NCBI GenBank assembly: GCA_024875585.1
Contig: GCA_024875585.1_4107.1
Source of the DNA: a phage
Strand: one strand, 5' to 3'
Length of the DNA stretch: 64,000 nt
Position 1 is the stretch's first letter. Every line of letters starts with the position of its first letter. The notes under the pieces are model-generated. The model searched no databases, was not told where the DNA came from, and saw nothing but the letters and a program-made list of their open reading frames with translations. The position numbers and the translations under genes are program-made. Positions 1,335-43,623 of the stretch are shown one piece after another.

Positions 1335-1343
1335 TAACAAAAA

Positions 1344-1367
1344 GGTTGACTTCGGTCAGCCTTTTTT
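1344..1367 (+). terminator. rho-independent terminator (GGTTGAC-UUCG-GTCAGCC hairpin + T6)
   Basis: stem with UUCG tetraloop then TTTTTT just after stop of 93..1334; stem contains TTGACT. Confidence 0.65.
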
Positions 1368-1375
1368 GTTATCAT
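1346..1375 (+). promoter_or_regulatory. candidate promoter with -35 TTGACT inside terminator stem, -10 TATCAT
   Basis: TTGACT-N18-TATCAT; same architecture repeated at other terminators. Confidence 0.35.
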
Positions 1376-1400: not shown

Positions 1401-2045
1401 GTGATGACTAAGCAAGAAATATTCAAAACATTAATTGACATTTTACGTTCATCTAAAACTCGTTGTGCAATGGAGTTTGATATTCCTTACGCTGAACGAG
1501 TCATCTTTCCACAAGTAAAAGAGGCAGGGCTTACTTTACTTGGTATGGGGATGTACTCTGTAGTAGTTGAACATAAAAACTATCCAGGTCGTGCATTTAA
1601 AGTAACCACGTCACGATGGGATGGTTTTCGTGCTTATGCAAAGTACTGTATTGATAACACAGGAACTAAGTTTCTTCCTGTAATATACAGTGCAAATGAA
1701 CAAGGAAACTTTGGATGGTATGAAATGGATAAGTACTACCCTATCATTAAACAAAAAAATAATTATGATGACTTTGTTAGTACTAAAATTGGAGATTTGT
1801 ATTCGTATGCACATGCTGGTCAGCACGTAACTTCAGTGAATGAACTGCGTGGAAATTCAGAAGAGATTGCAATTGCAACTGTTGTAGCTAACATAATGAA
1901 AGAGTTTCATGGTCGTTTTGTACCAGACATTCATTCCAGTAATGTAATGATGGATAAAGATGGAAATTTATTCATCACTGACCCTATTTCGTGTGATGTA
2001 CGTCGAGAAATACCAATCACTGAAGAAGACCCAATTTTTTATTGA
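1401..2045 (+). CDS. atypical protein kinase-like protein (214 aa)
   Basis: Gly-rich loop LGMGMYSVV, Lys in RAFKV, catalytic-loop-like DIHSSN, ITD (DFG-like); SD AAGGATGA. Confidence 0.45.
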   Translation: MMTKQEIFKTLIDILRSSKTRCAMEFDIPYAERVIFPQVKEAGLTLLGMGMYSVVVEHKNYPGRAFKVTTSRWDGFRAYAKYCIDNTGTKFLPVIYSANEQGNFGWYEMDKYYPIIKQKNNYDDFVSTKIGDLYSYAHAGQHVTSVNELRGNSEEIAIATVVANIMKEFHGRFVPDIHSSNVMMDKDGNLFITDPISCDVRREIPITEEDPIFY

Positions 2046-2108
2046 CAGAACTTGTGTTCTGGTGTATATTAAGTGAATTATAAACAAATTGTGACACAGG
2101 ATTAAATC

Positions 2109-2390
2109 ATGCGTTCATTTGAAAACTTAATAGGTAAACTTCTTTTATCTGAAATTAGTGAAGACGTTAAGGAATTATGCAAATCAAAAAGTTACATTCA
2201 TTTGGATGAACTGTTTGTTAAGTACGGAGAGATTAGTTTTAAATCATTATTTGTTTTTACTATGAAAGTACATAGTTTAAAGTACTTCGATTTAAGTTAT
2301 AAAAATGGTCAACCAAATCTATATCATATGTATTATCTCAAGAATATAGAAGAAGCTCATATCTTATTTTCTGAATATCTGAAGGTATAA
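2109..2390 (+). CDS. hypothetical protein (93 aa)
   Basis: ORF with ATG start, abuts next gene. Confidence 0.5.
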   Translation: MRSFENLIGKLLLSEISEDVKELCKSKSYIHLDELFVKYGEISFKSLFVFTMKVHSLKYFDLSYKNGQPNLYHMYYLKNIEEAHILFSEYLKV

Positions 2391-2391
2391 A

Positions 2392-2730
2392 ATGGAACAA
2401 TATTTTGAATTAGTTAATAAAGTGTCATTCTATGTAGTGTCATTGGTTTGGGTTTATTTCATGTTTTGCTACATTATTGCATTCTTCCGATATACTACTT
2501 TATATGAACGTATCTATTATGATGCACCAATATCATTCTTGGTGTTCTGTGCATGTACCTGGGGAATATTAGAAGTACTGATATGTGGATATAGTACTGA
2601 TGAATTAAATCTGGTATCGGTATTGACTGGGTTATCACTTGGTGTTATGATATCTTTCTTTCCAGTATGGTTGTTCTTTGAACTGATCCATCGCATTGAT
2701 GTATGGCGTTCTAATATCCCTGAAAAATAA
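2392..2730 (+). CDS. small multi-pass membrane protein, family M paralogue
   Basis: hydrophobic helices; C-terminal RSNIPEK tail shared with family M; SD GAAGG. Confidence 0.6.
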   Translation: MEQYFELVNKVSFYVVSLVWVYFMFCYIIAFFRYTTLYERIYYDAPISFLVFCACTWGILEVLICGYSTDELNLVSVLTGLSLGVMISFFPVWLFFELIHRIDVWRSNIPEK

Positions 2731-2739
2731 GGATTGATA

Positions 2740-3081
2740 ATGATTTATTACACTAACGTGTTTGCCTATGCTGTTGCTTGCATTTACATTGTTTACTTCT
2801 TATTTGGTGGAGTGCTTTGCTTCTTTAAGTACAAAACACTGTTTAATAGGATGTATCCAAATCATCCTATTGTAGTTGTACTTTTGATTCTTTCTCTTTC
2901 CCAAATAATCGTTGAAACTACATTGGGTATCAGTAGTGTACATTATAGTTTTGGCACTATAGTAATTATTACTATGCTTATTGCATACATTTTAGTACTT
3001 GGATATGGTATATTTGGTAATGTTGGAATGAAAATGTATCATCGAATTAAAACCTTACGTGATAATCTACCGGAGCGTTAA
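2740..3081 (+). CDS. small membrane protein, family M paralogue
   Basis: first ATG after SD AAGGATTGA (track start 2734 is TTG); C-terminal RDNLPER. Confidence 0.6.
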   Translation: MIYYTNVFAYAVACIYIVYFLFGGVLCFFKYKTLFNRMYPNHPIVVVLLILSLSQIIVETTLGISSVHYSFGTIVIITMLIAYILVLGYGIFGNVGMKMYHRIKTLRDNLPER

Positions 3082-3082
3082 G

Positions 3083-3427
3083 ATGTATAATTTAAACCTA
3101 ATCTCATATATTATAACAACCCTGTTTACATTTTATGTCTATGTTGGTATAATCCTACTGTACTTTAAATTTTATAAAGTGTTTAACCGTTTCTATCCTT
3201 CAATGGAGAATGAGTTCTTCTTTGTGTTGTACGTCTGCTACACGCTAATGGCTACTTGTTTCACTGTAGTTGATGGTATCATTGGTATTAAAGCAGATGG
3301 ACCAAATGGTAGTACGCTGGTTGCATTTATTCTTACCGGATTCTTGGCAACTTATATTACCTTCATTTCAACATGGTCAGTGGTTGAATTTCTCTTACGA
3401 CTACGAAAGAATATGCCGAATCGATAG
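3083..3427 (+). CDS. small membrane protein, family M paralogue
   Basis: ATG after SD GGAG, just past upstream stop (track start 3059 is GTG); C-terminal RKNMPNR. Confidence 0.6.
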   Translation: MYNLNLISYIITTLFTFYVYVGIILLYFKFYKVFNRFYPSMENEFFFVLYVCYTLMATCFTVVDGIIGIKADGPNGSTLVAFILTGFLATYITFISTWSVVEFLLRLRKNMPNR

Positions 3428-3436
3428 GAGACATAT

Positions 3437-3694
3437 ATGTTTGCATTGCGTAACAAAAACACTAAAGAATTATTATGTATTGATACAGTATGGGATTGTG
3501 CGGGTTCAACTACTGTTCTTGAAGAAGGTACTGGATATTGCGTGTTTGTTGTTCATGATAGGAATGAACTCGAATCATTGCTTGCTGAGTTTAATGCTGG
3601 TGGTAATCCTAACAGTACTAAATTCCCTGTGATTGTTAATCCAGCACCACCTGGTTCTTATGAAATTCTAACACTATGTGAGATGGATAAGTAA
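3437..3694 (+). CDS. hypothetical protein (85 aa)
   Basis: SD GGAGAC before ATG; TAATG junction with next gene. Confidence 0.55.
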   Translation: MFALRNKNTKELLCIDTVWDCAGSTTVLEEGTGYCVFVVHDRNELESLLAEFNAGGNPNSTKFPVIVNPAPPGSYEILTLCEMDK

Positions 3695-4074
3695 TGCGTC
3701 AAATGTACAAAGTGACCGAGCTAAACAAGCGTCTAGTTAAACAATCAATGTTCGAGGATAAAGAGTCTTATTATAACTTTAAACGTGCTGTAGAGGCTGC
3801 TATCCACATTCAGAAGCTTAAAGAACGTGGTTGTATTATTTTGGAAAATGGATCGGAAGTTGTATCGGATGACTTTAGTGTAGCGTTTGATGTTTCACCT
3901 GATGGGACGCTATCAATGCCCCGCTTAGGAACTGGAAACATGACTGTTTGGGTTGGCTTCACTATGGGTAATGTACCAGGCACAGTGTATGTAGATGATA
4001 TGGAGTTGAAAGAAAGCTTCAAAAACTTATCTTATCTTGAACCACAATACGCACATGAAATGAATTTATTTTGA
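3694..4074 (+). CDS. hypothetical protein (126 aa)
   Basis: ORF start overlaps upstream stop (TAATG). Confidence 0.55.
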   Translation: MRQMYKVTELNKRLVKQSMFEDKESYYNFKRAVEAAIHIQKLKERGCIILENGSEVVSDDFSVAFDVSPDGTLSMPRLGTGNMTVWVGFTMGNVPGTVYVDDMELKESFKNLSYLEPQYAHEMNLF

Positions 4075-4075
4075 G

Positions 4076-4103
4076 TTGACAAACACATTCAGTACTGTAT
4101 AAT
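4076..4103 (+). promoter_or_regulatory. sigma70-like promoter TTGACA-N16-TATAAT
   Basis: consensus -35/-10 hexamers; leader hairpin GGGATGA/TCATCCC at 4114..4132. Confidence 0.55.
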
Positions 4104-4150
4104 GCTTATCAAGGGGATGAACTTCTCATCCCTACAATCGAGGAACGACC

Positions 4151-4705
4151 ATGATTACTTTTAAGAAAACTGCTAACCACATCCATGAAATCTACATTAA
4201 CGGTCACAAAGCTGGCCTTCTTCGTTTACTCAGCCATCATCCTGATGTTATTGTATCTGATAATGAACCCAAAGATTGGCGTGTCTTTTTCTTTGGGAAG
4301 TACAGTGATTTTCAAGTATCAAATCTGAAGAACATTCGTTCAGTATGCACGTTAACTGAAATTAAAGAAAAGTTAGTAAAAGCATTGAAAACTAATCCAG
4401 ATGCAGTTCTTCCACCAGATAACTTTGTAGAGAAAGGTTATGCCTTAGCTCATTTCAAAGATGGCACTATTCAATCTATCAGCACTGCATATGAATATCA
4501 ATGGACTGAGTACTTCACTTATGGCTCCCGTGAAACTTTGATGGCTTCACGTAGTGAATTGGAAGAAGTAATAACTATTATAAATGAACGTGAACGTCAT
4601 TTATATGATAAACCTGAAATGTGGAGTTCAAATTACATTGACCGTATTGACTATGTTATTATGACTCCAATCTTTGACACTGCTTACTATGATTCTTTGA
4701 AATAA
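4151..4705 (+). CDS. hypothetical protein (184 aa)
   Basis: ORF downstream of promoter 4076..4103; SD GAGGAA. Confidence 0.65.
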   Translation: MITFKKTANHIHEIYINGHKAGLLRLLSHHPDVIVSDNEPKDWRVFFFGKYSDFQVSNLKNIRSVCTLTEIKEKLVKALKTNPDAVLPPDNFVEKGYALAHFKDGTIQSISTAYEYQWTEYFTYGSRETLMASRSELEEVITIINERERHLYDKPEMWSSNYIDRIDYVIMTPIFDTAYYDSLK

Positions 4706-4716
4706 GGATAACTTAT

Positions 4717-4893
4717 ATGAAACTACGTACTCGTAATCGTTTGATGGATGCACTGTACCACGAACAATGTACAATGAATGATGTAAAGCGTCAGTTAATG
4801 TATACATATCAGTTACCAGCCCGTGCTGCGAAACAACGTTCCAAAGAATTACTGAAAGAAGCTATCGAGTACTGGGAATCTGATTCGTACTAA
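4717..4893 (+). CDS. small hypothetical protein (58 aa)
   Basis: ORF below track cutoff; SD AAGGATA 7 nt upstream. Confidence 0.4.
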   Translation: MKLRTRNRLMDALYHEQCTMNDVKRQLMYTYQLPARAAKQRSKELLKEAIEYWESDSY

Positions 4894-4932
4894 TATTACG
4901 TGATATGTCACGTTAATTAAGTGAGACTATAA

Positions 4933-5193
4933 ATGAAAATTTTATTAGTTCTAATACTACTAATACTACTAATTGTTTTACCATTTACTTTAGTATCTCC
5001 TGAACTTGCATGGAATGTGTTTGTGTACTTAGTATGTACTATTGCGGTAAATGGTATCTTGTTCTTAGTTCTATTCATAAATGGAATAGGACACGGGGGT
5101 GGGTGGACCAGTACTGCTGATATTGTACATAAAACCACTATGTCTTTATTTGTAGTGTGGAATTTATTCTGGACTTGGTTTGTGTTCTTCTAA
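4933..5193 (+). CDS. small hydrophobic membrane protein (86 aa)
   Basis: two long hydrophobic segments; SD GAGACT. Confidence 0.55.
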   Translation: MKILLVLILLILLIVLPFTLVSPELAWNVFVYLVCTIAVNGILFLVLFINGIGHGGGWTSTADIVHKTTMSLFVVWNLFWTWFVFF

Positions 5194-5577
5194 ATGAAAA
5201 AAAATATGAATATAGATTTGAAAGGTGCAACCAGAACTGTTATCCTCATTGGTGAATACGCTATCAAGATTCCAACCTTCAAAAGCTGGAAGTTATTCTT
5301 AACGGGAATGATAGCTAACCTAAATGAACGTTCGTGGATGCAGTACTCCAATCGTAGTGACAGTAGTATCTGTCCTACGTTGTGGTCATCATGTACTGGA
5401 CTAATAACTGTACAGAAACGTTGTAAGCCAGTACAACATAGGGGTTTATTTTGGGTGGAGTTGTGTGCTTTAGCATTGAATTCTGAGTTAAGTATTGACT
5501 TCTTCTATTCAGATGCGAAGCCAGAAAACTTTGGGTATCTGGGTGGTAAGTTAGTTAAACTTGATTATGGAGATTAA
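5194..5577 (+). CDS. minimal protein kinase-like protein (127 aa)
   Basis: Lys in EYAIKIP, catalytic-loop-like DAKPEN, KLDYG (DFG-like); ends right after DYGD. Confidence 0.4.
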   Translation: MKKNMNIDLKGATRTVILIGEYAIKIPTFKSWKLFLTGMIANLNERSWMQYSNRSDSSICPTLWSSCTGLITVQKRCKPVQHRGLFWVELCALALNSELSIDFFYSDAKPENFGYLGGKLVKLDYGD

Positions 5578-5578
5578 T

Positions 5579-5848
5579 ATGTACGCATTGTATAATAAAG
5601 AAAAGAAACAATTTGCTAAGGTTGAAATTTCGATTGATACATTTGATATGTTGGAGTACTGTATTGTAACGGACCCATGTGCTAACTTGTATTACGTTCA
5701 TGATGACGTATCAGTACTGCAACGATTGCTTGAGAGTTCAAAAAGTCAATGTCAGGGAATCCATGATGGTTCATCCTATGAAACTCCTGAGTGTTCATAT
5801 GGCTGTCTGGATGGATATGAGATTGTTAAGTTAGGGATCGTTGAATAA
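5579..5848 (+). CDS. hypothetical protein (89 aa)
   Basis: ATG after SD GGAG (track start 5561 is TTG); followed by terminator. Confidence 0.5.
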   Translation: MYALYNKEKKQFAKVEISIDTFDMLEYCIVTDPCANLYYVHDDVSVLQRLLESSKSQCQGIHDGSSYETPECSYGCLDGYEIVKLGIVE

Positions 5849-5854
5849 AGAAAA

Positions 5855-5880
5855 GGGTTGACTTTAGTCAGCCCTTTTTT
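5855..5880 (+). terminator. rho-independent terminator (GGGTTGAC-UUUA-GTCAGCCC + T6)
   Basis: 8 bp stem, T-tract; contains TTGACT. Confidence 0.65.
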
Positions 5881-5887
5881 CTATAAT
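5858..5887 (+). promoter_or_regulatory. candidate promoter TTGACT-N18-TATAAT embedded in terminator
   Basis: -35 inside hairpin, perfect TATAAT at 5882..5887. Confidence 0.45.
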
Positions 5888-5915
5888 CATTTCATCGGAA
5901 CGGAAGGATGTTGAA

Positions 5916-6398
5916 ATGAACTATTTAGATTTAATTAATACGTATGTCATCAGCCCATATCTTAACGATGAAAGTATCAAATGTGTAGTATCTGTTGATA
6001 ATCATCCAAATGGTGCATTAGAACTATTCGGTGCAGGACAGATTAACAATCGTTGTGGGTATACTTTTGAGTACTTACCAGAAAGAGATGTATTTGGTTG
6101 TTATGACCACAAAATCAAAAAAGGTGCTATATGGGGTAATCACAAAGATATTGCACAATCTTCACTTTTCGAAGATCATAATGGATATATGTGGCGTTCT
6201 CTTGGTGCAGTCCTACTTGATATCGCCCGTAGATATAAAAAGCGTATAACTCTTACTTATACACATACAGTTGAATATAAAAATGAAGTACAAGTAGAAG
6301 ATGAAGAATTTTTTAAAAGTATCCCGTACATTGAATTCAACTTCCAAAACGGGTATGCTATATATCCTGATGATTTTATTGGTGAAAAATATTTTTAA
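5916..6398 (+). CDS. hypothetical protein (160 aa)
   Basis: SD GGAAGGATG; ORF after terminator/promoter cassette. Confidence 0.65.
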   Translation: MNYLDLINTYVISPYLNDESIKCVVSVDNHPNGALELFGAGQINNRCGYTFEYLPERDVFGCYDHKIKKGAIWGNHKDIAQSSLFEDHNGYMWRSLGAVLLDIARRYKKRITLTYTHTVEYKNEVQVEDEEFFKSIPYIEFNFQNGYAIYPDDFIGEKYF

Positions 6399-6405
6399 AA
6401 AATAT

Positions 6406-6433
6406 TTGAAAAGAAAAGAATAAGTGCTATAAT
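6406..6433 (+). promoter_or_regulatory. candidate promoter TTGAAA-N16-TATAAT
   Basis: hexamers upstream of 6490 gene. Confidence 0.4.
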
Positions 6434-6489
6434 TATTACATCAAGACAACAAACACTAACATGTAAACGCTACTAATTAGGAGACACAC

Positions 6490-6900
6490 ATGATTAACAA
6501 ACATTTCGCAGTTTCTAAAACAGTAACCATCGATAACGAATGGGAAATTACTATTCTTAATGATCCTGCTCGTGGGTTGCTTGCAGAGAATCTTGTACAG
6601 AAATACATCGACTGTAAGTCTGAATTGATTATTCACGACCGTACCAAATTTCTTCTCATCAATGGCAAGAAGTGTAAAGTATTAGTATTCACGGATAAAA
6701 TGAGCCGTGCAGACATTATCACCAAATTGGTAAGTTCTTCACGTCACCGCCCAGGAGTTAACAAATCTATCGAAGAAGTTAAAGATATGAAGCCTGGTGA
6801 TTTATTCATTATTGCGGGTTTTGATTCTAAAACAAGAGAAATGTACATTTCAGAAATGTACACTAATGCTGAAATGCGTAACAAATTCTTCTCTAACTAA
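6490..6900 (+). CDS. hypothetical protein (136 aa)
   Basis: SD AGGAGA before ATG. Confidence 0.65.
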   Translation: MINKHFAVSKTVTIDNEWEITILNDPARGLLAENLVQKYIDCKSELIIHDRTKFLLINGKKCKVLVFTDKMSRADIITKLVSSSRHRPGVNKSIEEVKDMKPGDLFIIAGFDSKTREMYISEMYTNAEMRNKFFSN

Positions 6901-6931
6901 TCAACCTAATTATGTATTATACAAATCTATA

Positions 6932-8149
6932 ATGGATAAAAATATGATCTTCGAAACAGAAAAAACTTTACTTGAAACTTATACTTTAGAAAATCTTGTA
7001 CAACTTAATCTGGCCCGTCCTGATATTCAACGAAACTGGCAATGGAAAAGTAATAATCAAAATAATCTTATAATTTCTATTCTAAAGAATTCACCAATTG
7101 GACAATTTTTGGTATGGAATGAAACTTCTTCAAATACAATGTACATTACTGATGGACGCCATCGTTATACTGTAATTTCAAACTTCATTAATAATAAGTT
7201 CCCAGTAACAGTTAAAACCGAAAGTGGAACCAAAGATTATTATTATGGTTCTGACGATCCAATCGAAGAAGAAAACATTTCACTAAAACTTGGTGGTAAA
7301 AGTAAGACTTGGAATTTCTTATCAAAAGAAGAGCGTAATGCTTTTCGCAATAAAGAAGTATCAGTAACATTTGTTCATACAGATGATGCTGAGAAGATTT
7401 CTGAAATGTTTATGGCTATCAACACTGCTTCATCTAATTTGTGTAAAGTAGACTTGCTGGTATGCAAGCACCACAAAAATGCATACATGAAACGTATTGA
7501 TAAACTATTTTCAATTGAGATTGAAAAAGATGACCAAATGGCAGTTCTAGTTAGCGATTTCTATCGTGCAATCGGACACTGTAATGTCAACGGTAATTAC
7601 GAGAAACATTTAGCTAAACTTAAAGCTAACCCAAAAGTTCAGAAGCGTGAATTTTTTGAGATGTATTTTATGGTACGAGCCTTCACCAAATTGTGTCGTG
7701 ATGCTTTAAACGATACATTGAATTCATATCGTATGCCTAAGATGAATAAACAAATTGAAGATGCTATTATTAGTACTGAATCACTGAGTGAACAGCAAGC
7801 TAACGCCGATTTTGTTCAGTTCGTGAATGCAGTTCGTGAGATGAACCTTGTATCTCCAATAAAAGATTTACAAAAGTTTCAATTCATCCACGAAGATATG
7901 AAGAATACCTTTAACAAGCGTCTTTTTTGTATCTTAATGGGATTATATTATGCTTACGGTACACGTTTACCATTGCATTTTCGTGATGTTTGGTGTGCCA
8001 TTTATAATGAAATGTCAGAAAAAAGTACTGAACTACCAACAAACGGGACTGATAGTTCTTCTGCTATTGTAGCTGGTATCCAATTGATTGAACCGTACTT
8101 TAGTTCAGCCTTTAATAATATTTCATTGAGTGCTCGCGTGGGAAAGTGA
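6932..8149 (+). CDS. DUF262 / ParB-like nuclease-domain protein (GmrSD N-terminal-like)
   Basis: motifs RPDIQRNWQW, SPIGQFLVW, ITDGRHRY (DGQQR-type); start uncertain (first ATG after upstream stop; track start 6797 overlaps previous gene). Confidence 0.6.
   Translation: MDKNMIFETEKTLLETYTLENLVQLNLARPDIQRNWQWKSNNQNNLIISILKNSPIGQFLVWNETSSNTMYITDGRHRYTVISNFINNKFPVTVKTESGTKDYYYGSDDPIEEENISLKLGGKSKTWNFLSKEERNAFRNKEVSVTFVHTDDAEKISEMFMAINTASSNLCKVDLLVCKHHKNAYMKRIDKLFSIEIEKDDQMAVLVSDFYRAIGHCNVNGNYEKHLAKLKANPKVQKREFFEMYFMVRAFTKLCRDALNDTLNSYRMPKMNKQIEDAIISTESLSEQQANADFVQFVNAVREMNLVSPIKDLQKFQFIHEDMKNTFNKRLFCILMGLYYAYGTRLPLHFRDVWCAIYNEMSEKSTELPTNGTDSSSAIVAGIQLIEPYFSSAFNNISLSARVGK
8140..8146 (+). other. 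candidate -1 ribosomal frameshift heptamer G_GGA_AAG
   Basis: X_XXY_YYZ pattern one codon before DUF262 stop; -1 slip enters HNH frame. Confidence 0.3.
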
Positions 8150-8358
8150 AAAATCGTGGAATACTAAATATTTCACAAAAACAATATATTTTGAAAAAAT
8201 ATCCCGTTTGTTATCTTTGTAAACAATTTATATTAGATACAGATAAACCACACTTTGATCATGTACAGTCATTGAAAAATGGTGGTAGTAATGACCTAGA
8301 AAATATTAGACCAACGCACCCCATTTGTAATTTACGCAAAGGTGCTAAAAGTATGTAG
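8146..8358 (+). CDS. HNH endonuclease motif ORF (70 aa, no ATG start)
   Basis: CYLC...HFDHV...GGSNDLEN...HPICN; GTG at 8146 overlaps upstream TGA. Confidence 0.5.
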   Translation: MKNRGILNISQKQYILKKYPVCYLCKQFILDTDKPHFDHVQSLKNGGSNDLENIRPTHPICNLRKGAKSM

Positions 8359-8407
8359 AATAAAGACTCCCATTGACTGGGAGTCTTGTTATATTAAAAG
8401 GATTTAT

Positions 8408-9244
8408 ATGAGTATTAAAAATAAATTAGATCAGTATTATACAAAACCAGAGTATGCTGTAGATTGTTATACTAAATCATTAGAATTAATTTCTGAACGT
8501 ATGGATATTAGTTCATCGTATTTTATGGAACCATGTGTCGGTACTGGTTCATTTTATCTACAATTTCCTGAAGAACGTCGTTTTGGTTGTGATATCGAAC
8601 CAGTACATCTTGATGAAAATGTTATACATTCTGATTTTTTGCTTGAGTTCGGGATTAATGCAAGAAGTAAAGGTGAGCCAATAATTGTTATAAGTAATCC
8701 ACCATTTGGTAAGATTTCTTCTTTGGCTATCAAATTCTTTAATAAATGTGCATCTATGCCTGAAGTGAAATATATTTGTTTTATTGTACCTAAGACATTC
8801 CGTAAAGTTGCAACACAGAATAAACTAAACGAGATGTTCCATCTTGTTCTTGATGAAGATTCACCACATGATGCTTTTATTCTGCATGGCGAACCGCATC
8901 ATGTACCATGTGTATTTCAGATATGGGAGCGTAGAGATGAAGTTCGTGAACAACACGAAATTAAAAATAAATCAAACTACTTCCAGTTTTGTACTAAGGA
9001 TGAAGCGGATATTTACATTAAGCGTGTAGGAACTAAAGCTGGTGAGTATGCTGCACCTGGTAAAGAACACAAAGATGCAAGTATGTACTACATTAAAACT
9101 GATTATGTTGATGAAATTATTAGAATTTTGCAAAGTGAAGACTACATTGACGAGATTAAACGTATACGCAAAACCACCGCTGGTGTATTCTGTGTATCTA
9201 AATCTGAACTTGTACTGAACATTGAAAAACGTTTGAATTTTTAA
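8408..9244 (+). CDS. N6-adenine DNA methyltransferase (gamma-type motif order)
   Basis: DQYYTKPEYA (motif X), EPCVGTGSF (motif I), ISNPPFG (motif IV); SD AAAGGATT; track start 8342 is GTG. Confidence 0.65.
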   Translation: MSIKNKLDQYYTKPEYAVDCYTKSLELISERMDISSSYFMEPCVGTGSFYLQFPEERRFGCDIEPVHLDENVIHSDFLLEFGINARSKGEPIIVISNPPFGKISSLAIKFFNKCASMPEVKYICFIVPKTFRKVATQNKLNEMFHLVLDEDSPHDAFILHGEPHHVPCVFQIWERRDEVREQHEIKNKSNYFQFCTKDEADIYIKRVGTKAGEYAAPGKEHKDASMYYIKTDYVDEIIRILQSEDYIDEIKRIRKTTAGVFCVSKSELVLNIEKRLNF

Positions 9245-9250
9245 AATACA

Positions 9251-9275
9251 GGGTTGACTTAGGTCAGCCCTTTTT
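9251..9275 (+). terminator. rho-independent terminator (GGGTTGAC-UUAG-GTCAGCCC + T5)
   Basis: hairpin + T-tract after MTase stop. Confidence 0.65.
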
Positions 9276-9283
9276 GCTAAAAT
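9254..9283 (+). promoter_or_regulatory. candidate promoter TTGACT-N18-TAAAAT embedded in terminator
   Basis: same cassette architecture as 5858..5887. Confidence 0.4.
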
Positions 9284-9311
9284 TCTTTCATCGAAACGTG
9301 AGGATGAATAC

Positions 9312-9827
9312 ATGACACGCATTAACTTAGTACACGTTAAAGAACTTGCAGACCAACATCTGATGGCTGAATATCGTGAACTACCACGTGTATTTGGTGC
9401 TGTACAAAAACACGTTCAAGCATGTAAGCGTGTACGTGATTTCAAAATTAACAGTACTTATCTGTTAGGTTCAGGTCATGTGACATTCTTTTACGACAAG
9501 TTGCTGTACTTACAGAAGCGTCATATCGATATTGTCAACGAATGTTTGCGTCGTGGTATGAAGATTCAAAATACTGAAGTAAACGACATTAGCAGCTTCC
9601 CTGCTGAGTTTTGTAATGACTATGTACCATCGGAGTCAGAGATTGAAATGTCTCGTAAGCGTTTGATTGAGAAGCTTCAGATGAAGCCTACGTGGTATAA
9701 GTTTACTGATGTTGAATGTCCACAGTACGTTACAGATATGCTGAACGTAAGTAGTAAGTTCGAATATAGTACGGCTATGTTAGACGAAATTGAAGAACAA
9801 ATCAAAGATGAAATGAATAATTATTAA
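9312..9827 (+). CDS. denV: pyrimidine-dimer DNA glycosylase / endonuclease V (T4 DenV homologue)
   Basis: N-terminus [31 protein letters not shown] nearly matches T4 DenV as I recall it; [14 protein letters not shown]. Confidence 0.85.
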
Positions 9828-9865
9828 AGGAAAGGATTGACTTCGGTCACATAAAGGAACATAAC

Positions 9866-10060
9866 ATGTTATTAGTATATTCAAAGCGTTTCTGGATTTC
9901 TTTTATTGTACTATCGCTAATCGGCTTCGGTGTGAGTATACTCTTTTCGTGGGATGAATTGGGCACATGGTATTATGAAGTCCCGTGGTACATGAAGATA
10001 GCTCCTTGTTACGCGGCATTGTTCGTATCATTCCTTATTGTTGTCTTCAGCGAGGATTAG
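9866..10060 (+). CDS. small membrane protein (64 aa)
   Basis: two hydrophobic segments; SD AAGGAA. Confidence 0.5.
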   Translation: MLLVYSKRFWISFIVLSLIGFGVSILFSWDELGTWYYEVPWYMKIAPCYAALFVSFLIVVFSED

Positions 10061-10112
10061 TTGATGTAGTATGTTCTACATCAAAAGTATTTGGATATTT
10101 GAGATATAAACA

Positions 10113-10141
10113 TTGACACATGTTCTATCTTTCTGTATTAT
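10113..10141 (+). promoter_or_regulatory. sigma70-like promoter TTGACA-N17-TATTAT
   Basis: hexamers upstream of 10168 gene. Confidence 0.5.
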
Positions 10142-10167
10142 GTACATCACCAAATGAGGAATACAAC

Positions 10168-10527
10168 ATGGCATCTTTAAGTGAAATCGCGGAATACAAT
10201 CCACTAACAATCTCAACAATTCAACGTACAAAAACTTTTTATTTCCGTCCTGTTGATGGATGGAAACGTGGAATGAATAGTGACTATCGAGTACTGGAAG
10301 ATTCACTCATCGAGCGTATCAACTCTGAACTACAGAAGTATGAAGGTGTTAAAGTTGTACGTTCAACTTCTCGTTATTTTGAGTACTATATTGAGTCTTT
10401 AACAGTAAATGAAAACTCATCATCATCTGTGGATAACACTGATATTCTTCGTAATGCAGTTGGTCTGTTATGCAACATTGCAGAAGAAATGGGATTAACT
10501 ATCACAACAATGAGTGAAATAGAATAA
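10168..10527 (+). CDS. hypothetical protein (119 aa)
   Basis: ATG 7 nt after SD GAGGA; track start 10120 lies in promoter. Confidence 0.6.
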   Translation: MASLSEIAEYNPLTISTIQRTKTFYFRPVDGWKRGMNSDYRVLEDSLIERINSELQKYEGVKVVRSTSRYFEYYIESLTVNENSSSSVDNTDILRNAVGLLCNIAEEMGLTITTMSEIE

Positions 10528-10534
10528 CAAAAAA

Positions 10535-10559
10535 GGGTTGACTTTAGTCAGCCCTTTTT
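10535..10559 (+). terminator. rho-independent terminator (GGGTTGAC-UUUA-GTCAGCCC + T5)
   Basis: hairpin + T-tract. Confidence 0.65.
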
Positions 10560-10567
10560 GCTATAAT
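10538..10567 (+). promoter_or_regulatory. candidate promoter TTGACT-N18-TATAAT embedded in terminator
   Basis: perfect TATAAT at 10562..10567. Confidence 0.45.
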
Positions 10568-10595
10568 CATTTCATCAACTGATGAGGATAACGAA

Positions 10596-11369
10596 ATGAA
10601 CCGTACAGAGAAAGCACTCCAAATTGAAAAGAACTTCAACTCCATGATGGCAGCACTGGAATGTCTTCTTGATACACAAACTAACTCGATCAACTCGCTG
10701 ATCGTTTCTGGTAAAGGTGGTGTTGGTAAAACTTACAATGTTGACCAACGGTTACAGAAAGCTGATGACAACTTTGAAATCGACTACAAGAAAATCAGTG
10801 GTAAAGTAACTACTGTAGGTCTGTACGAAGCACTGTATCGTTCACGTCATGCTGCTTCAGTACTGTTACTTGACGACGTTGATATCTTCTCTGATGAAAC
10901 GAATATTGATTTGCTTAAAGCTGTATTGGATACTTCTGAGAAGCGTGTAGTGTCTTATGCTACATCTGCGAAGTACCTGGAACAGCAGGGTATCCCTAAA
11001 CAGTTTGAATTCCGTGGTAAAGTAATCTTTCTGACTAACAAAAATCTGTCACAGATTGCTAAAGGTAAAAGCAGTTTAGCACCACACATTGATGCACTGA
11101 TTACTCGTAGTATCTTTGTTGACCTGCAACTGTTCACCAACGAAGAAGTTATGATTCACATTGAGAATATCATGAACAAAACTAACATCCTTGAGAACAA
11201 TGGTGTTAACAAAAATGGTTGTAAAGCAATTTTGAACTGGATGTTGAGTAATGAAGATCGTCTGCGTTCACCTTCACTGCGTATGCCAGTACTGATCGCT
11301 GGACTGTATAATAAATTCCCATATGATTGGGAGTCAATGGCAGAGAATATGTTCCTTGAGAAAAATTGA
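10596..11369 (+). CDS. P-loop NTPase, AAA+-like (257 aa)
   Basis: Walker A GKGGVGKT, Walker B LLLDDVD about 50 aa later, sensor-1-like FLTNKN. Confidence 0.55.
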   Translation: MNRTEKALQIEKNFNSMMAALECLLDTQTNSINSLIVSGKGGVGKTYNVDQRLQKADDNFEIDYKKISGKVTTVGLYEALYRSRHAASVLLLDDVDIFSDETNIDLLKAVLDTSEKRVVSYATSAKYLEQQGIPKQFEFRGKVIFLTNKNLSQIAKGKSSLAPHIDALITRSIFVDLQLFTNEEVMIHIENIMNKTNILENNGVNKNGCKAILNWMLSNEDRLRSPSLRMPVLIAGLYNKFPYDWESMAENMFLEKN

Positions 11370-11425
11370 TCACGAGCATTAACCGAACTAACAATGTGTA
11401 GTATTTAATTTACTGGAGACACCCA

Positions 11426-11767
11426 ATGTGTGAGTTTTTTGAATCTAATATAATGCTTGGTATTACATTGATATACATGTATGTATTCTTGTTTTATCAT
11501 TCAATTGTAATTAGTCTTTGGTATTTTAAAAGGAAAATGGTTTTTAAATTATATTCATATGATAATGTATTCTTAGTTATATATAGTATCATACAAGGTG
11601 GGTTTGTTCTATTTGGTATTATGACGTATGTGATTTATAGATTACAAATTGATAACACACCATACATTACACAATATGTTGTGTTTTCAGGACTAATCGT
11701 ATGGTTATTGGTGTGTATAATTTATTTTATAATTAAAGCTCGTGATAAAATTAAAGGGGATTTCTAA
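11426..11767 (+). CDS. small membrane protein, family M paralogue
   Basis: LWYFKRKMVFKLY core; C-terminal ARDKIKGDF. Confidence 0.6.
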   Translation: MCEFFESNIMLGITLIYMYVFLFYHSIVISLWYFKRKMVFKLYSYDNVFLVIYSIIQGGFVLFGIMTYVIYRLQIDNTPYITQYVVFSGLIVWLLVCIIYFIIKARDKIKGDF

Positions 11768-12105
11768 TGTTAGAATTTTTTAAATCAGATGTGATGCTTA
11801 GTATTACATTGATTTATATGTTTGGTTTTTTATTTTATCATCTACTAGTTGTAGTTCTATGGTATTTTAAAAAGAAAATAGTTTTCAAACTGTATCCACC
11901 TAGTAACATTTTATTGTTTCTTTACACACTTATTCAAGGTATGTTTGTTATTATTGGTGTTATCACACACTTAATCTATTGTTATAATCCACATTTAAAA
12001 TCAATAACACAATATATTGTTTTCTTTGGGTTGTTCATTTGGTTAATTATATACTTAATTGAACTCATTATTCATAGTAGAGAAAAAATTCGTGGAGACT
12101 TCTAA
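11767..12105 (+). CDS. small membrane protein, family M paralogue
   Basis: near-duplicate of 11426 gene; TAATG coupling; C-terminal REKIRGDF. Confidence 0.65.
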   Translation: MLEFFKSDVMLSITLIYMFGFLFYHLLVVVLWYFKKKIVFKLYPPSNILLFLYTLIQGMFVIIGVITHLIYCYNPHLKSITQYIVFFGLFIWLIIYLIELIIHSREKIRGDF

Positions 12106-13470: not shown

Positions 13471-13833
13471 ATGAACGGGATTGAATTATCTTTCATTGGT
13501 CAAATACTAGTAATGGTGAATACTTTCTTTTTCTCACTTATTGCATTAATGTGCATTGGAAAGTATTTTCATAAACAACCATTCTCAAATTTATATGATG
13601 TAATAAAAAAGAAATATAGTCCTGCACATAGTGTACTTATTTGCAGTTTCAATTTTGGTTTTGTTGTATTAATAATTGGATTGTTAACATCAACGTCAAA
13701 TGTAATGATCTTCGGTCTTATGATCTGTTCATTGGTATTAGCAGTAATTGTATGTTGTTTAGTACTGCACCTTGTAGTACTATTATATATAAAGCTCGTT
13801 GAAATCCATCAACGTTTAGGTATGAGGAAATAA
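13471..13833 (+). CDS. small membrane protein, family M-like
   Basis: ATG after SD GAGGT (track start 13408 is internal to previous gene); hydrophobic. Confidence 0.5.
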   Translation: MNGIELSFIGQILVMVNTFFFSLIALMCIGKYFHKQPFSNLYDVIKKKYSPAHSVLICSFNFGFVVLIIGLLTSTSNVMIFGLMICSLVLAVIVCCLVLHLVVLLYIKLVEIHQRLGMRK

Positions 13834-13834
13834 T

Positions 13835-14206
13835 ATGAGTTACCGTGAGATATTTTCCATTATTTCAATTATTATGTTCAGTGCTGGGACATTGGTGTGG
13901 GTATTATATTTTTTCTGTGTATCACCAGTGTATAATATGTTATGTAATATTAAATCAAGTTCTGGATATATGACTTTTATGATCTTTATGGGATATTATT
14001 GTCTAAGCATTTTAGGTGTTGTTTTGGTTGTTATATTTGATGTAGGGCCAAATAAGGATGGTCTGAAAATGTATGAGTTAATAACTATGTTTGGGTGTAT
14101 GATACCAACTGCACTAATGTTTGTAGCTATTGGTGCTGGATGTATAAAGTTATACAATTATTTAAAATCCATTCATCATTCCATTCATAATAAACGTATG
14201 TCATAA
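13835..14206 (+). CDS. small membrane protein, family M-like
   Basis: SD GAGGAAA; hydrophobic; basic C-terminus. Confidence 0.5.
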   Translation: MSYREIFSIISIIMFSAGTLVWVLYFFCVSPVYNMLCNIKSSSGYMTFMIFMGYYCLSILGVVLVVIFDVGPNKDGLKMYELITMFGCMIPTALMFVAIGAGCIKLYNYLKSIHHSIHNKRMS

Positions 14207-14247
14207 TAAAAATCCAGTACTGAATAGTACTGGACTAATAAGGAGTT

Positions 14248-14898
14248 ATGATGAAATCAAAATTAGGTTTGTTTTATGGAAACTACTTCATTAAACAGCG
14301 TAAATTCATAAAAAAATACTTCTCCACAGAGAAATCTAGTCCTATAATTTTTAAAAGACCAAAATATAATTTTTACTTAGCAGGTGCTAAACAGTCTAAG
14401 AAATTCATTACATTTTTAAATAAAAACAAAATTAAAGCTTCTTATGTTGAAACTAGAAAGAACTCATCGATAATTCCTGGTGATTTCATTGAATACGGAT
14501 GTTTCAATATTAAGTACAATGATAGCACATACTGTATGGATATTGATTGCAATACATCAAATCTTTTTAACATTGTAATAAATCCATCGAAACAATATAA
14601 TGTTTATGGTGATTCAATTATCAAATTAATAAAAAACAAAGATTGGTTTGATTTTGAAATAAATGTTTTAGATGAAAATTATGATGAAGTTCCAGTTAAC
14701 CCTGAAATATGTGATATATTAAACAGTTTAAAAGGTAGTAGCTACAATATACCATCTGATTTAATGTTTCAGTACTCTTTAATACATAAAGATATTGAAC
14801 ATTATATTGTGTGTGCTAAAATCTTGAATTATCTGTATGATGAATTTAAAATGAGTTCTAAAATAACAGCATATACTCTTTATAATATTTCTATATAA
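14248..14898 (+). CDS. hypothetical protein (216 aa)
   Basis: SD AAGGAG; basic N-terminus. Confidence 0.6.
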   Translation: MMKSKLGLFYGNYFIKQRKFIKKYFSTEKSSPIIFKRPKYNFYLAGAKQSKKFITFLNKNKIKASYVETRKNSSIIPGDFIEYGCFNIKYNDSTYCMDIDCNTSNLFNIVINPSKQYNVYGDSIIKLIKNKDWFDFEINVLDENYDEVPVNPEICDILNSLKGSSYNIPSDLMFQYSLIHKDIEHYIVCAKILNYLYDEFKMSSKITAYTLYNISI

Positions 14899-14911
14899 TT
14901 TAAAATATTAA

Positions 14912-14938: not shown

Positions 14939-14939
14939 A

Positions 14940-16110: not shown

Positions 16111-16133
16111 GTATTTAACCCAATTAAGAAAAG

Positions 16134-34859: not shown

Positions 34860-34866
34860 AAAAAAG

Positions 34867-34889
34867 TGGTTGACTTCGGTCAGCCATTT
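34867..34889 (+). terminator. terminator hairpin (GGTTGAC-UUCG-GTCAGCC) with weak T-tract
   Basis: start of a 130 bp repeated intergenic module. Confidence 0.5.
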
Positions 34890-34915
34890 TGCTATTATAT
34901 ATTCATTGAGAGATA

Positions 34916-43553: not shown

Positions 43554-43572
43554 CAAAAAAAAAGAATAAAAA

Positions 43573-43597
43573 GGGATTGACTCCGGTCAGTCCCTTT
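43573..43597 (+). terminator. terminator hairpin (GGGATTGAC-UCCG-GTCAGTCCC + TTT)
   Basis: same cassette as 41282. Confidence 0.5.
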
Positions 43598-43623
43598 GCT
43601 ATTATATACGCATAGACAAAAAC

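What the first reader, a model, noticed from the sequence alone, without database searches (positions are those of the whole stretch)
5855..5887. Fused terminator-promoter cassettes: UUCG-loop terminator stems that contain a TTGACT -35 box
At 1344, 5855, 9251, 10535, 34867, 38275, 41282 and 43573 (with variants at 8369 and 9835) the terminator is (G)GGTTGAC-UU(C/U)(G/A)-GTCAGCC(C) plus a T-tract. The 5' arm reads TTGACT, and about 18 bp downstream lies a -10-like hexamer (TATAAT, TAAAAT, TATCAT, TATTAT). The same roughly 40 bp may therefore terminate the upstream transcript and re-initiate the next one. The element recurs with gene-sized spacing like a punctuation cassette, and the stable UUCG tetraloop is conserved in most copies.
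Basis: partly seen in the sequence, partly recalled or inferred. Interest (0 to 1): 0.55.

Follow-up and report, generated by a model that had tools for sequence, protein, structure and literature searches.

The report
Combined terminator-promoter cassettes in a jumbo phage
A roughly 45-bp sequence repeated eight times in this giant E. coli phage most likely both stops the upstream transcript and restarts transcription, and it also marks where gene blocks are swapped; the same kind of element (PeSL) is already known from T4-like phages.

Summary
Eight full copies and one truncated copy of A-tract / GGGTTGAC-loop-GTCAGCCC / T-tract / (TGn) -10 lie on the + strand, against about 0 expected by chance. 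The window comes from an Asteriusvirus (121Q/G17-like) jumbo coliphage. The dual-function reading is well supported indirectly. The hairpin covaries. Its loops are enriched in UNCG and GNRA. A -10 hexamer is locked at 17-18 nt from the TTGAC in 93 of 98 hairpins that were chosen without requiring a -10. Every copy starts 9-23 nt after a stop codon. The four copies in the first 15 kb sit exactly at the edges of every indel seen against four relatives (two cassettes versus one), so they also act as recombination joints. All of this matches the 'promoter-early stem-loop' (PeSL) cassettes described in T4-like phages in 2010 and 2014, including the subclass whose stem overlaps the -35 box. Public records and one related paper list these hairpins as terminators only. 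Position 9835 is a truncated scar. Position 8369 is not a member. The spacing corresponds to modules of one to roughly a dozen genes. Verdict: new member of a known kind, of moderate interest.

The parts
1336..1375 (+). Cassette 1. A-tract; stem GGTTGAC/GTCAGCC with loop TTCG (1344-1361); T6; TGt; -10 TATCAT at 1370-1375. Follows the stop codon of ORF 93-1334. SD and start codon at about 1392-1404.
   Evidence: (-16.7 kcal/mol)
5848..5887 (+). Cassette 2, the focal copy. Stop codon TAA 5846-5848; A-rich 5849-5854; 5' arm GGGTTGAC 5855-5862 (-35 TTGACT 5858-5863); loop TTTA 5863-5866; 3' arm GTCAGCCC 5867-5874; T6 5875-5880; -10 TATAAT 5882-5887. Predicted transcription start about 5894; SD 5904-5908; ATG 5916. 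It is the left edge of the 3.4-kb insert.
   Evidence: (-18.7 kcal/mol)
5916..9244 (+). Gene module bracketed by cassettes 2 and 3: five ORFs, including a GmrSD_N/DUF262 protein, an HNH protein and a putative N6-adenine methyltransferase. It is absent from UE-S1 and G17, which have a single cassette at this position.
9247..9283 (+). Cassette 3. GGGTTGAC-TTAG-GTCAGCCC, T5, TGc, -10 TAAAAT at 9278-9283. Lies upstream of the denV-like gene 9312-9827 and is the right edge of the 3.4-kb insert.
   Evidence: (-15.1 kcal/mol)
9832..9849 (+). Truncated cassette (GGATTGACTTCGGTCA only), a recombination scar. ph0011 has one intact cassette where the window has this stump, then 684 bp, then cassette 4.
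   Evidence: (-3.2 kcal/mol)
9850..10537 (+). Two-ORF module (9866-10060 and 10120-10527) lying between the truncated cassette and cassette 4. It is absent from ph0011.
10528..10567 (+). Cassette 4. AAAAAAGGGTTGAC-TTTA-GTCAGCCC, T5, TGc, -10 TATAAT at 10562-10567; SD and ATG at 10596. G17 carries a 1.4-kb two-gene insert between two copies of this cassette.
   Evidence: (-18.1 kcal/mol)
34860..34898 (+). Cassette 5 (group B). GTGGTTGAC-TTCG-GTCAGCCAT, T4, TGc, -10 TATTAT at 34893-34898. Followed by a ~190-nt leader that contains a second promoter.
   Evidence: (-15.9 kcal/mol)
38268..38307 (+). Cassette 6 (group B). GGATTGAC-TTCG-GTCAGTCC, T5, TGc, -10 TATTAT at 38302-38307.
   Evidence: (-17.0 kcal/mol)
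41276..41314 (+). Cassette 7 (group B). GGGATTGAC-TCCG-GTCAGTCCC, only T3, TGc, -10 TATTAT at 41309-41314.
   Evidence: (-19.5 kcal/mol)
43567..43605 (+). Cassette 8 (group B). GGGATTGAC-TCCG-GTCAGTCCC, only T3, TGc, -10 TATTAT at 43600-43605.
   Evidence: (-19.5 kcal/mol)
8363..8387 (+). NOT a member. Hairpin AAGACTCCCA-TTGAC-TGGGAGTCTT with TTGAC in the loop, no T-tract, and no -10 at a usable distance.

Best explanation
Each copy is a compact composite regulatory cassette of the PeSL (promoter-early stem-loop) kind. It sits between gene modules in the early, highly variable part of an Asteriusvirus jumbo coliphage genome, and almost every base does two jobs.

On RNA made from upstream, GGGTTGAC-loop-GTCAGCCC plus the U-tract forms an intrinsic terminator. 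The upstream A-tract can pair with the U-tract and lengthen the stem.

On DNA, the same bases form a sigma-70 promoter. The A-tract plus GGG lies where an UP-element proximal subsite would be. TTGACT in the 5' arm is the -35. The rest of the loop, the 3' arm and the T-tract make up the 17-18-bp spacer. TGn plus TATAAT-like is an extended -10. Transcription would restart about 7 nt further on, so the new transcript does not contain the hairpin.

Incoming transcription is therefore stopped or attenuated, and a fresh transcript is launched for the next module. The terminators with only 3 T's (41286, 43577) are probably leaky.

Because the ~65-75-bp unit, including its leader, is repeated in direct orientation, it also serves as homology for recombination that inserts, deletes or swaps the modules between copies.

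Shown here: the sequence architecture, selection on the structure, the position-locked -10, the intergenic placement, clustering in one genome region, and indels bracketed by cassettes.

Inferred: actual termination, actual initiation by host RNA polymerase, and the recombination mechanism.
For: Identity of the window: Asteriusvirus.

Copies and chance.

RNA folding: -15 to -19.5 kcal/mol on the sense strand against -11 to -12.5 antisense.

Outer-stem covariation, in 51 contexts chosen without specifying the outer stem: 90.7% of cells paired against 79.4% shuffled; 51 compensatory cells against 11.4; 0 of 500 shuffles reach the observed value.

Loops: UNCG 30 of 97 and GNRA 20 of 97, against 1.1% and 3.3% expected.

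Position of the -10: 93 of 98 at spacer 17 or 18, against 8-9% in the antisense control; TG in 56 of 93; upstream A-tract 64-93% A. A at +7 after the -10 in 79%, with SD and start codon usually within about 25-35 nt.

Window copies: 9-23 nt after a stop codon; 7 of 8 with TGn; stem length trades off against T-tract length so that the spacer stays at 17-18.

Genome-wide census in a complete relative (EC22.5-2, 352 kb): 10 cassettes, all on one strand, all within about 62 kb, none in the other 290 kb. One copy keeps the hairpin and T-tract but has lost the -10.

Indels: all 5 events in window 1-15 kb, against UE-S1, G17, ph0011 and EC22.5-2, have their edges in cassettes. Three of them show two cassettes versus one, with the alignments overlapping by 64, 75 and 17 bp.

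Linkage to a module: GAP32, in another genus, keeps a cassette directly after the same DUF262-methyltransferase module.

Precedent: PeSLs have five subclasses, one with the stem overlapping the -35, and lacZ tests showed promoter and terminator activity (PMC2839356; PMC4122927).

Annotation elsewhere: ARNold independently calls these hairpins terminators in G17 (-17.0) and in CBB (-16.8).
Against: There are no transcript 3' or 5' ends, reporter assays or in vitro data for this phage or any Asteriusvirus. I found no paper on the subject.

An 18-bp spacer is one longer than the optimum.

Cassettes 41286 and 43577 have only three T's after the stem, so termination there may be weak.

The four group-B copies are conserved in place and are not indel edges in JP4 or EC22.5-2. 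Over the whole window the link between indels and this cassette class is therefore only moderate.

The copies compared across contigs are related sequences, so the shuffle statistics overstate independence.

The PeSLs that were tested experimentally have different sequences.
Confidence: 0.8

Rival explanations
1. The elements are plain intrinsic terminators. The TTGACT in the stem and the downstream TATAAT-like hexamer would then be by-products of AT-rich sequence and of a stem sequence that happens to be popular.
For: Public annotation and the CBB paper list them only as terminators. Some copies lack a -10: EC22.5-2 345686 and CBB Torf515. In the window, consensus-like promoters overall are no more frequent than in shuffled sequence.
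Against: The -10 hexamer is locked at 17-18 nt in 93 of 98 hairpins that were selected without it, against 8-9% on the mirror side and 8% or less at other offsets. TG is present at -15/-14 in 56 of 93. A purine sits at +7 and an SD with a start codon follows. The T-tract is shortened to 3 nt when the stem is longer, which keeps the spacer length and is the opposite of what a pure terminator would favour.
Confidence: 0.07
2. The elements are promoters only. The inverted repeat over the -35 would then act on DNA, for example as an operator for a dimeric phage regulator that shuts off early promoters, or as a cruciform, and would not terminate transcription.
For: A palindrome centred on the -35 is a classic operator layout. 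The other promoter family in this window also carries a palindrome (CAGTACTG) in its spacer. Two copies have only three T's after the stem.
Against: The position opposite the first T of TTGAC is G in 37 of 51 cases. That gives a G.U pair in RNA but a mismatch in a DNA palindrome. The outer-stem sequence varies while pairing is kept. Loops are enriched for the RNA-stabilising UNCG and GNRA types. T-tracts directly follow the stem, and the element starts right after stop codons. A copy without a -10 still keeps the hairpin and T-tract.
Confidence: 0.08
3. The elements are primarily selfish or mobile DNA: miniature repeat elements, or target sites of a homing endonuclease or site-specific recombinase. 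Any regulatory resemblance would be secondary.
For: They are repeated and sit at indel edges, and one copy is truncated inside the hairpin. HNH genes occur nearby, at 8146-8358 and at GAP32_520. The same core occurs in several unrelated phage groups.
Against: All copies are co-oriented with the genes, lie precisely between a stop codon and the next SD, have no terminal inverted repeats or target-site duplications, and are confined to one genome region. The group-B copies are stable in position across relatives. The position-locked -10 and the stem covariation show selection for regulatory function.
Confidence: 0.03

Closest known systems
PeSLs (promoter-early stem-loops) of T4-like phages: RB49/phi1 (Arbiol et al. 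2010, PMC2839356); T4/PST and KVP40/nt-1 (Comeau et al. 2014, PMC4122927)
   Same: Both are composite units made of an AT-rich tract, a sigma-70-like promoter and a stem-loop terminator. Both lie between a stop codon and the next SD and start codon, occur in many copies concentrated in variable regions full of small ORFs, and sit at the edges of indels between close relatives, including degraded half copies. One described subclass has the stem overlapping the -35. A contig of KVP40's exact length (244,834 bp) carries sites with the same core, GGGTTGAC-N4-GTCAGCCC-TTT...TATTAT.
   Different: The host genome here is an Asteriusvirus (Rak2-like jumbo phage, about 350 kb), which is not a member of Straboviridae, and I found no paper describing PeSLs in that group. 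Here a single architecture dominates (the -35 inside the 5' arm), whereas RB49/phi1 have five mixed arrangements. Promoter activity, terminator activity and mini-circles were shown for RB49/phi1 but not here. The figures of those papers are not held, so I could not check whether the KVP40 sites I found are the ones they drew.
Intrinsic (Rho-independent) terminators of E. coli and its phages
   Same: A G/C-rich 8-9-bp stem, a 4-nt loop that is often UUCG, a U-tract, an upstream A-tract that can pair with the U-tract, and placement just after a stop codon. ARNold predicts them as terminators in G17 and CBB.
   Different: The stem sequence is constrained to contain TTGAC. The U-tract is capped at 3-6 nt because it must fit within a promoter spacer, and it is followed at a fixed distance by an extended -10.
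T4-type early promoters and extended -10 sigma-70 promoters with UP elements (from my own knowledge of the T4 early promoter consensus and of the UP proximal subsite AAAAAARNR, Estrem et al. 1999; neither was checked here)
   Same: A -35-like TTGAC(T/A), a 17-18-bp spacer, TGn plus a TATAAT-like -10, and an A-rich tract directly upstream. The 'RpoD-like promoters preceded by an UP-like element' reported for CBB include one with the same hairpin (Porf_41).
   Different: The spacer and the -35 are also an RNA hairpin plus U-tract. The window's other, larger promoter family (about 23 copies) lacks this and instead has a CAGTACTG box and a hairpin in the leader.
Morons of lambdoid phages (a single gene carrying its own promoter and terminator)
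   Same: Accessory genes are delimited by their own promoter and terminator. The cargo here, a GmrSD-like protein, an HNH protein, a methyltransferase and denV, is of the accessory type.
   Different: Moron regulatory sequences are neither fused into one unit nor conserved repeats, and they are not thought to mediate the insertion (as discussed in PMC2839356).

Membership tests
PeSL (promoter-early stem-loop) cassette | Sigma-70-like promoter with -35 and -10 boxes at about 17 bp | tested here: met
   TTGACT, then 17 or 18 nt, then TATAAT/TATTAT/TAAAAT/TATCAT in 8 of 8 copies, with TGn in 7 of 8. Position-locked in 93 of 98 related hairpins.
PeSL (promoter-early stem-loop) cassette | Stable stem-loop inside or next to the promoter (here the subclass overlapping the -35) | tested here: met
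   -15.1 to -19.5 kcal/mol, z -3.8 to -6.6. Covariation: 0 of 500 shuffles reach the observed value.
PeSL (promoter-early stem-loop) cassette | AT-rich tract upstream of the -35 | tested here: met
   A-tracts in all 8 copies. 64-93% A at positions -10 to -4 relative to TTGAC in 98 contexts.
PeSL (promoter-early stem-loop) cassette | Intergenic placement: upstream stop codon on the 5' side, SD and start codon on the 3' side | tested here: met
   A stop codon lies 9-23 nt before TTGAC in 8 of 8 copies. In the 4 group-A copies the SD lies about 17 nt and the start codon about 26-29 nt after the -10. The group-B copies instead have a ~190-nt leader containing a second promoter.
PeSL (promoter-early stem-loop) cassette | Many copies concentrated in variable regions rich in small ORFs | tested here: met
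   8 full copies plus 1 truncated copy in the window. In the complete genome EC22.5-2, 10 copies lie within about 62 kb and none in the remaining 290 kb. The regions consist of 60-130-aa ORFs.
PeSL (promoter-early stem-loop) cassette | Association with insertions, deletions or replacements between close relatives (two cassettes versus one; degraded half copies) | tested here: met
   All 5 indel events in window 1-15 kb have cassette edges, with overlapping alignments of 64, 75 and 17 bp, and there is a truncated copy at 9837. This is not seen for the 4 group-B copies.
PeSL (promoter-early stem-loop) cassette | Measured promoter and terminator activity (lacZ fusions) and PeSL mini-circles | not testable with these tools
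   This needs wet-lab work. It has been shown only for RB49/phi1 PeSLs (PMC2839356).
Intrinsic terminator | G/C-rich stem, short loop, and a U-tract directly 3' of the stem | tested here: met
   8-9-bp stems with 4-6 G-C pairs and a 4-nt loop. T5-T6 in 5 copies, T4 in one, and only T3 in 41286 and 43577, which is marginal.
Intrinsic terminator | Transcript 3' ends at the U-tract | not testable with these tools
   No transcriptome data are available for this phage group.

The most novel reading that the evidence does not exclude
The cassettes may be more than punctuation: they could be the shared joints of a gene-exchange system that crosses phage families.

The same core, down to the G.U wobble and often the CATCGAAAC leader, occurs in Straboviridae (a KVP40-length contig, Aeromonas phage 65), in Rak2-like jumbo phages of at least seven host genera, and in many uncultivated viral contigs. 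A DUF262-methyltransferase module keeps its cassette in two different genera.

In addition, the four group-B cassettes and five other promoters launch transcripts that carry a conserved (A/G)CCCAC-N-GGGTGC box about 30-35 nt after the -10. That placement is similar to lambda nut sites. If the box recruits an antiterminator, the cassette terminators would work as a timed gate between immediate-early and delayed-early expression.
Probability: 0.15. Interest if true: 0.6.

Novelty: new member of a known kind. Interest (0 to 1): 0.35.

Why it matters
It extends PeSL-type composite cassettes from T4-like phages to the ~350-kb Rak2-like jumbo phages. In that group they are currently annotated, if at all, as plain terminators, so operon maps of the early regions are probably wrong: every such 'terminator' is likely also a transcription start.

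It gives a concrete mechanism for the gene-by-gene mosaicism of these genomes. Defence and anti-defence cargo, such as a GmrSD-like/methyltransferase module, is bracketed by cassettes.

The element is also a natural ~45-bp part in which almost every base serves both a terminator and a promoter. That could be useful as an insulating junction in synthetic operons.

Tried and rejected
- Rfam scan of the whole window: no family reached threshold. tRNA scan: none found. The conserved sequence after the group-B cassettes is therefore not a known RNA gene.
- My hypothesis that the base opposite the first T of TTGAC is never A (to avoid a -35 on the other strand): rejected as a rule. A occurs in 9 of 51 contexts, and perfectly palindromic forms are common (59 strand-counts). 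G is only the preferred base, at 37 of 51.
- The hairpin at 8363 as a variant cassette: rejected.
- A conserved RNA fold for the group-B leader motif: RNAalifold finds only a 4-bp mini-hairpin with no covariation.
- Association of group-B cassettes with indels: not found in JP4 or EC22.5-2.
- Literature on Asteriusvirus or phAPEC6 promoters and terminators: nothing found. The PA5oct RNA-seq paper reports TTGAC/TATAAT promoters and ARNold terminators separately. The supplement of the 2014 PeSL paper is not held.
- My first pair-register for the outer stem was off by one. It was corrected.
- Convergence versus common descent of the identical core in Aeromonas phage 65: this cannot be decided, because given the functional constraints an exact match by convergence is not improbable.

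Full report
WHAT THE WINDOW IS. Megablast of 5,000-12,000 and of 25,000-49,000 against phage records hits only ~350-kb E. coli, Salmonella and Klebsiella jumbo myophages of the 121Q/PBECO4/G17 group (genus Asteriusvirus), at 85-97% identity with patchy coverage. The complete genome of phage EC22.5-2 (351,992 bp) is about 90% identical to the window and colinear with it. The window is packed with 60-130-aa ORFs on the + strand, apart from a minus-strand block at about 14-24 kb.

THE OBSERVATION. The stated site reads GGGTTGAC-TTTA-GTCAGCCC, then TTTTTT, C, TATAAT. The 18-mer consensus, with up to 2 mismatches, occurs 6 times against 0.00 expected. The looser TTGAC-N4-GTCA occurs 9 times, all on the + strand, against 0.41 expected. 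The alignment shows that conservation extends well beyond the hairpin: an upstream A-tract, the stem, the T-tract, TG-C, the -10, and then a leader. Two groups can be distinguished.
- Group A (1346, 5858, 9254, 10538): the leader runs CATTTCATC...AGGAT to a start codon about 26-29 nt after the -10.
- Group B (34870, 38278, 41286, 43577): the cassette is the first part of a ~250-bp repeat that continues with a conserved ~60-nt leader and a second promoter.

The eight full copies fold at -15.1 to -19.5 kcal/mol (z -3.8 to -6.6). The antisense strand folds 4-7 kcal/mol less well, because a conserved T.G wobble becomes a C.A mismatch there.
- UUCG is the loop in 3 of 8 full copies, not most.
- 9837 is a stump without a 3' arm extension, T-tract or -10 (-3.2 kcal/mol).
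- The hairpin at 8363 has TTGAC in its loop and neither a T-tract nor a usable -10, so it is not a member.
- The spacing corresponds to modules of one to roughly a dozen genes.

IS THE HAIRPIN SELECTED AS A STRUCTURE? I scanned the viral contig collection for TTGACTTCGGTCA-N10-12-TATNAT, a pattern that leaves the outer stem unspecified. In the 51 unique contexts, the six outer positions pair in 78-90% of cases against 60-70% when partners are shuffled. The alternatives include GGG/CCC, CCC/GGG, GCC/GGC, GAG/CTC, CCAC/GTGG and TGG/CCA. The formal count over the whole helix gives the following:
- 90.7% of cells paired, against 79.4 +/- 0.9 in shuffles
- 51 doubly changed cells, against 11.4 +/- 2.9
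- covariation score 0.328, against 0.128
- 0 of 500 shuffles as high as observed, and all slid registers lower

In a second set, selected on the hairpin plus TTT only, loops are UNCG in 30 of 97 and GNRA in 20 of 97, against 1.1% and 3.3% expected. The G.U wobble, the covariation and the stable tetraloops all point to selection on an RNA hairpin rather than on a DNA palindrome. One caveat applies: the contexts are related sequences, so these statistics overstate independence.

IS THE PROMOTER REAL? In that second set, chosen with no requirement for a -10, 93 of 98 non-palindromic hairpins have TANNNT exactly 17 nt (55%) or 18 nt (40%) after TTGACN. Other offsets give 8% or less, and the mirror-image position on the antisense side gives 8-9%. 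TG occupies -15/-14 in 56 of the 93, and the seven positions just 5' of the G-run are 64-93% A. The base 7 nt after the -10 is A in 79% of cases, and an SD and start codon usually follow within about 25-35 nt.

In the window, 7 of 8 copies have TGn. Stem length trades off against T-tract length so that the spacer stays at 17-18 nt: a 9-bp stem goes with T3, and an 8-bp stem goes with T5-T6. That trade-off makes sense only if spacer length is under selection. From my own knowledge, not checked here, AAAAAAGGG directly 5' of the -35 matches the UP-element proximal subsite consensus AAAAAARNR.

PLACEMENT. Every full copy begins 9-23 nt after the stop codon of an ORF of at least 45 codons and is co-oriented with the genes. 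In EC22.5-2 there are ten genuine copies, all on one strand. They lie at 340.7-351.7 kb and 40.1-49.6 kb, with none in the remaining ~290 kb. One copy (345686) keeps the hairpin and T-tract but has no -10.

RECOMBINATION JOINTS. Five indel events were found in window 1-15 kb.
- UE-S1 and G17 align to window 1,988-5,910 and 9,242 onward, and their single cassette aligns to both window copies with a 64-65-bp overlap. The window therefore carries a 3,396-bp insert exactly between cassettes 5858 and 9254.
- G17 carries a 1.4-kb two-gene insert between two cassettes where the window has only cassette 10538, with a 75-bp overlap.
- ph0011 has one intact cassette where the window has the stump at 9837, then a 684-bp two-ORF module, then cassette 10538. 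The joint lies inside the hairpin, with a 17-bp overlap.
- ph0011 also has an extra 406-bp ORF abutting the left edge of cassette 5858.
- EC22.5-2 has a replacement running from 5,849 to 10,557.

These five events use four sites, and all four carry cassettes. By my own count from the ORF list, about 29 gene junctions lie in that stretch and five of them carry cassettes, so a chance probability is roughly 2e-4 (hypergeometric, my estimate).

The 3.4-kb insert encodes a GmrSD_N/DUF262 protein (E 1.4e-17), an HNH protein and a putative N6-adenine methyltransferase. Among 50,697 phage records it is shared in full only by ph0011. GAP32, in another genus, has a DUF262-methyltransferase module that is again followed at once by a cassette.

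By contrast, the four group-B cassettes are conserved in place in JP4 and EC22.5-2 and are not indel edges. In that region several single-gene indels are bracketed by copies of the other promoter family instead.

COMPARISON WITH WHAT IS KNOWN. Arbiol et al. 2010 (PMC2839356) described PeSLs in the T4-like phages RB49 and phi1. These are repeated ~50-100-bp cassettes that combine a strong sigma-70-like early promoter, an upstream AT-rich tract and a stem-loop. The cassettes lie between a stop codon and the next SD and are concentrated in hyperplastic regions. There are five subclasses, including stems that overlap the -35. lacZ fusions showed promoter strength and terminator activity, and inverse PCR showed mini-circles formed by recombination between neighbouring PeSLs, in one case within the loop. 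Comeau et al. 2014 (PMC4122927) extended the concept to T4/PST and KVP40/nt-1 and described degraded half-PeSLs.

The present element meets every feature of that definition that can be tested in silico. The same core is present on a contig of KVP40's exact length, in Aeromonas phage 65 (AAAGGGTTGACTTCGGTCAGCCCTTTTTGCTACTAT), in RaK2 upstream of denV (as in this window), and in CBB, GAP32, Serratia BF, Yersinia fHe-Yen9-04 and many uncultivated contigs.

For the Rak2-like group I found no description of the composite nature. G17's record labels the hairpins 'terminator, -17.0, ARNOLD'. The CBB paper lists GGGTTGACTTCGGTCAGCCC three to four times in its terminator table, and a hairpin-containing site (Porf_41) in its promoter table, without comment. 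The finding is therefore a new member of a known kind.

MECHANISM AND CONFIDENCE. I put 0.8 on the dual terminator-plus-promoter function. I put somewhat less, about 0.6, on the cassettes being the actual substrates of the recombination that moves modules. The architecture, the selection signatures and the indel topology are shown here. Termination, initiation by the host polymerase and the recombination pathway are inferred from these and from the RB49/phi1 experiments. The terminator-only, promoter/operator-only and mobile-element readings each fail on specific data, as set out under the rival explanations.

OTHER THINGS SEEN. The following turned up in passing and are listed separately:
- a second promoter family of about 23 copies
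- a 60-fold excess of the palindrome CAGTACTG
- a conserved leader box downstream of nine promoters
- evidence that 24,988-45,056 is the ~20-kb terminal repeat

Noticed in passing
window 25382-43297 (+ strand), also 4076 (+) and 26391 (-): A second promoter family of about 23 copies: aaaaAGTAC-TTGCAA/TTGACA-N16-TATAAT. It often has CAGTACTG directly before the -10, followed by gTTTTACAT, a G/C hairpin (GGGGnAA..TTCCCC) in the 5' leader, and an SD. One copy stands in front of almost every small ORF. Several single-gene indels against EC22.5-2 are bracketed by two copies (30832, 34405, 35003, 36834/37262, 41715). It looks like a second PeSL-like class, with the stem-loop downstream of the -10.
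   Followed up: partly
whole window, e.g. 4090, 25396, 28286, 30846, 36838: The 8-bp palindrome CAGTACTG occurs 46 times against 0.75 expected. It is found in promoter spacers, in hairpin stems and inside ORFs. It may be a binding site for a phage protein; its function is unknown.
   Followed up: partly
+ strand 28189, 34925, 38334, 41341, 43627; - strand 30412, 28257, 26334, 26118: The conserved box (A/G)CCCAC-N-GGGTGC lies about 30-35 nt downstream of the -10 of nine promoters, always on the promoter's strand, including all four group-B cassettes. Only a 4-bp mini-hairpin is predicted, with no covariation. Similar AACCC-N3-GGGTGC boxes follow cassettes in many Rak2-like contigs. The placement recalls lambda nut sites, which is speculation.
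   Followed up: partly
window 24988 and 45056: 24,988-45,056 (about 20.07 kb) behaves as the genome's direct terminal repeat. The JP4 record joins ...GGGTAACCTAG (corresponding to window ~45056) directly to TAGGCAGAGGAAGTCTGCC (window 24988). Several relatives' records start at about window 25,000, and G17's record ends at about window 45,053. A hairpin, GGCAGAGGAAGTCTGCC, sits at the left boundary. The group-B cassettes and nearly all class-II promoters lie inside this repeat.
   Followed up: partly
window 13760-18761, mostly - strand (14236, 16150, 17573, 18761); also 25540 (+): A different family of terminator-like hairpins whose stems are built on CCAGTAC...GTACTGG punctuates the minus-strand gene block. 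CBB's terminator table contains similar AGTACT hairpins, Torf26 and Torf113.
   Followed up: no
window 26022-30469, - strand: Near-consensus promoters point against the + strand gene array: 28307 (12 of 12 consensus matches, with TG), 30469, 26391 and 26050. Each is followed by the leader box. The pair at 28135(+)/28307(-) is convergent and its transcripts would overlap by about 70 nt, so these may be antisense or small RNAs.
   Followed up: no
window 6797-9244; GAP32 locus L170: A GmrSD_N/DUF262 protein (E 1.4e-17), a separate 70-aa HNH protein and a putative N6-adenine methyltransferase form an accessory module. It is shared with ph0011 (82.6% identity) and in part with GAP32 (72.9% over the methyltransferase gene).
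   Followed up: partly
window 18640-18691, 19911-20016, 53706-53925, 59372-59456: Other indels against EC22.5-2 also have overlapping alignment ends (51, 105, 219 and 84 bp). This means other direct repeats, not the cassettes, flank them. I did not examine which repeats they are.
   Followed up: no
EC22.5-2 345686 (L135); CBB Torf515: Terminator-only relatives of the cassette: the same GGTTGACTTCGGTCAGCC hairpin and T-tract but no -10 at 16-19 nt. The promoter half can therefore decay while the hairpin is kept.
   Followed up: no
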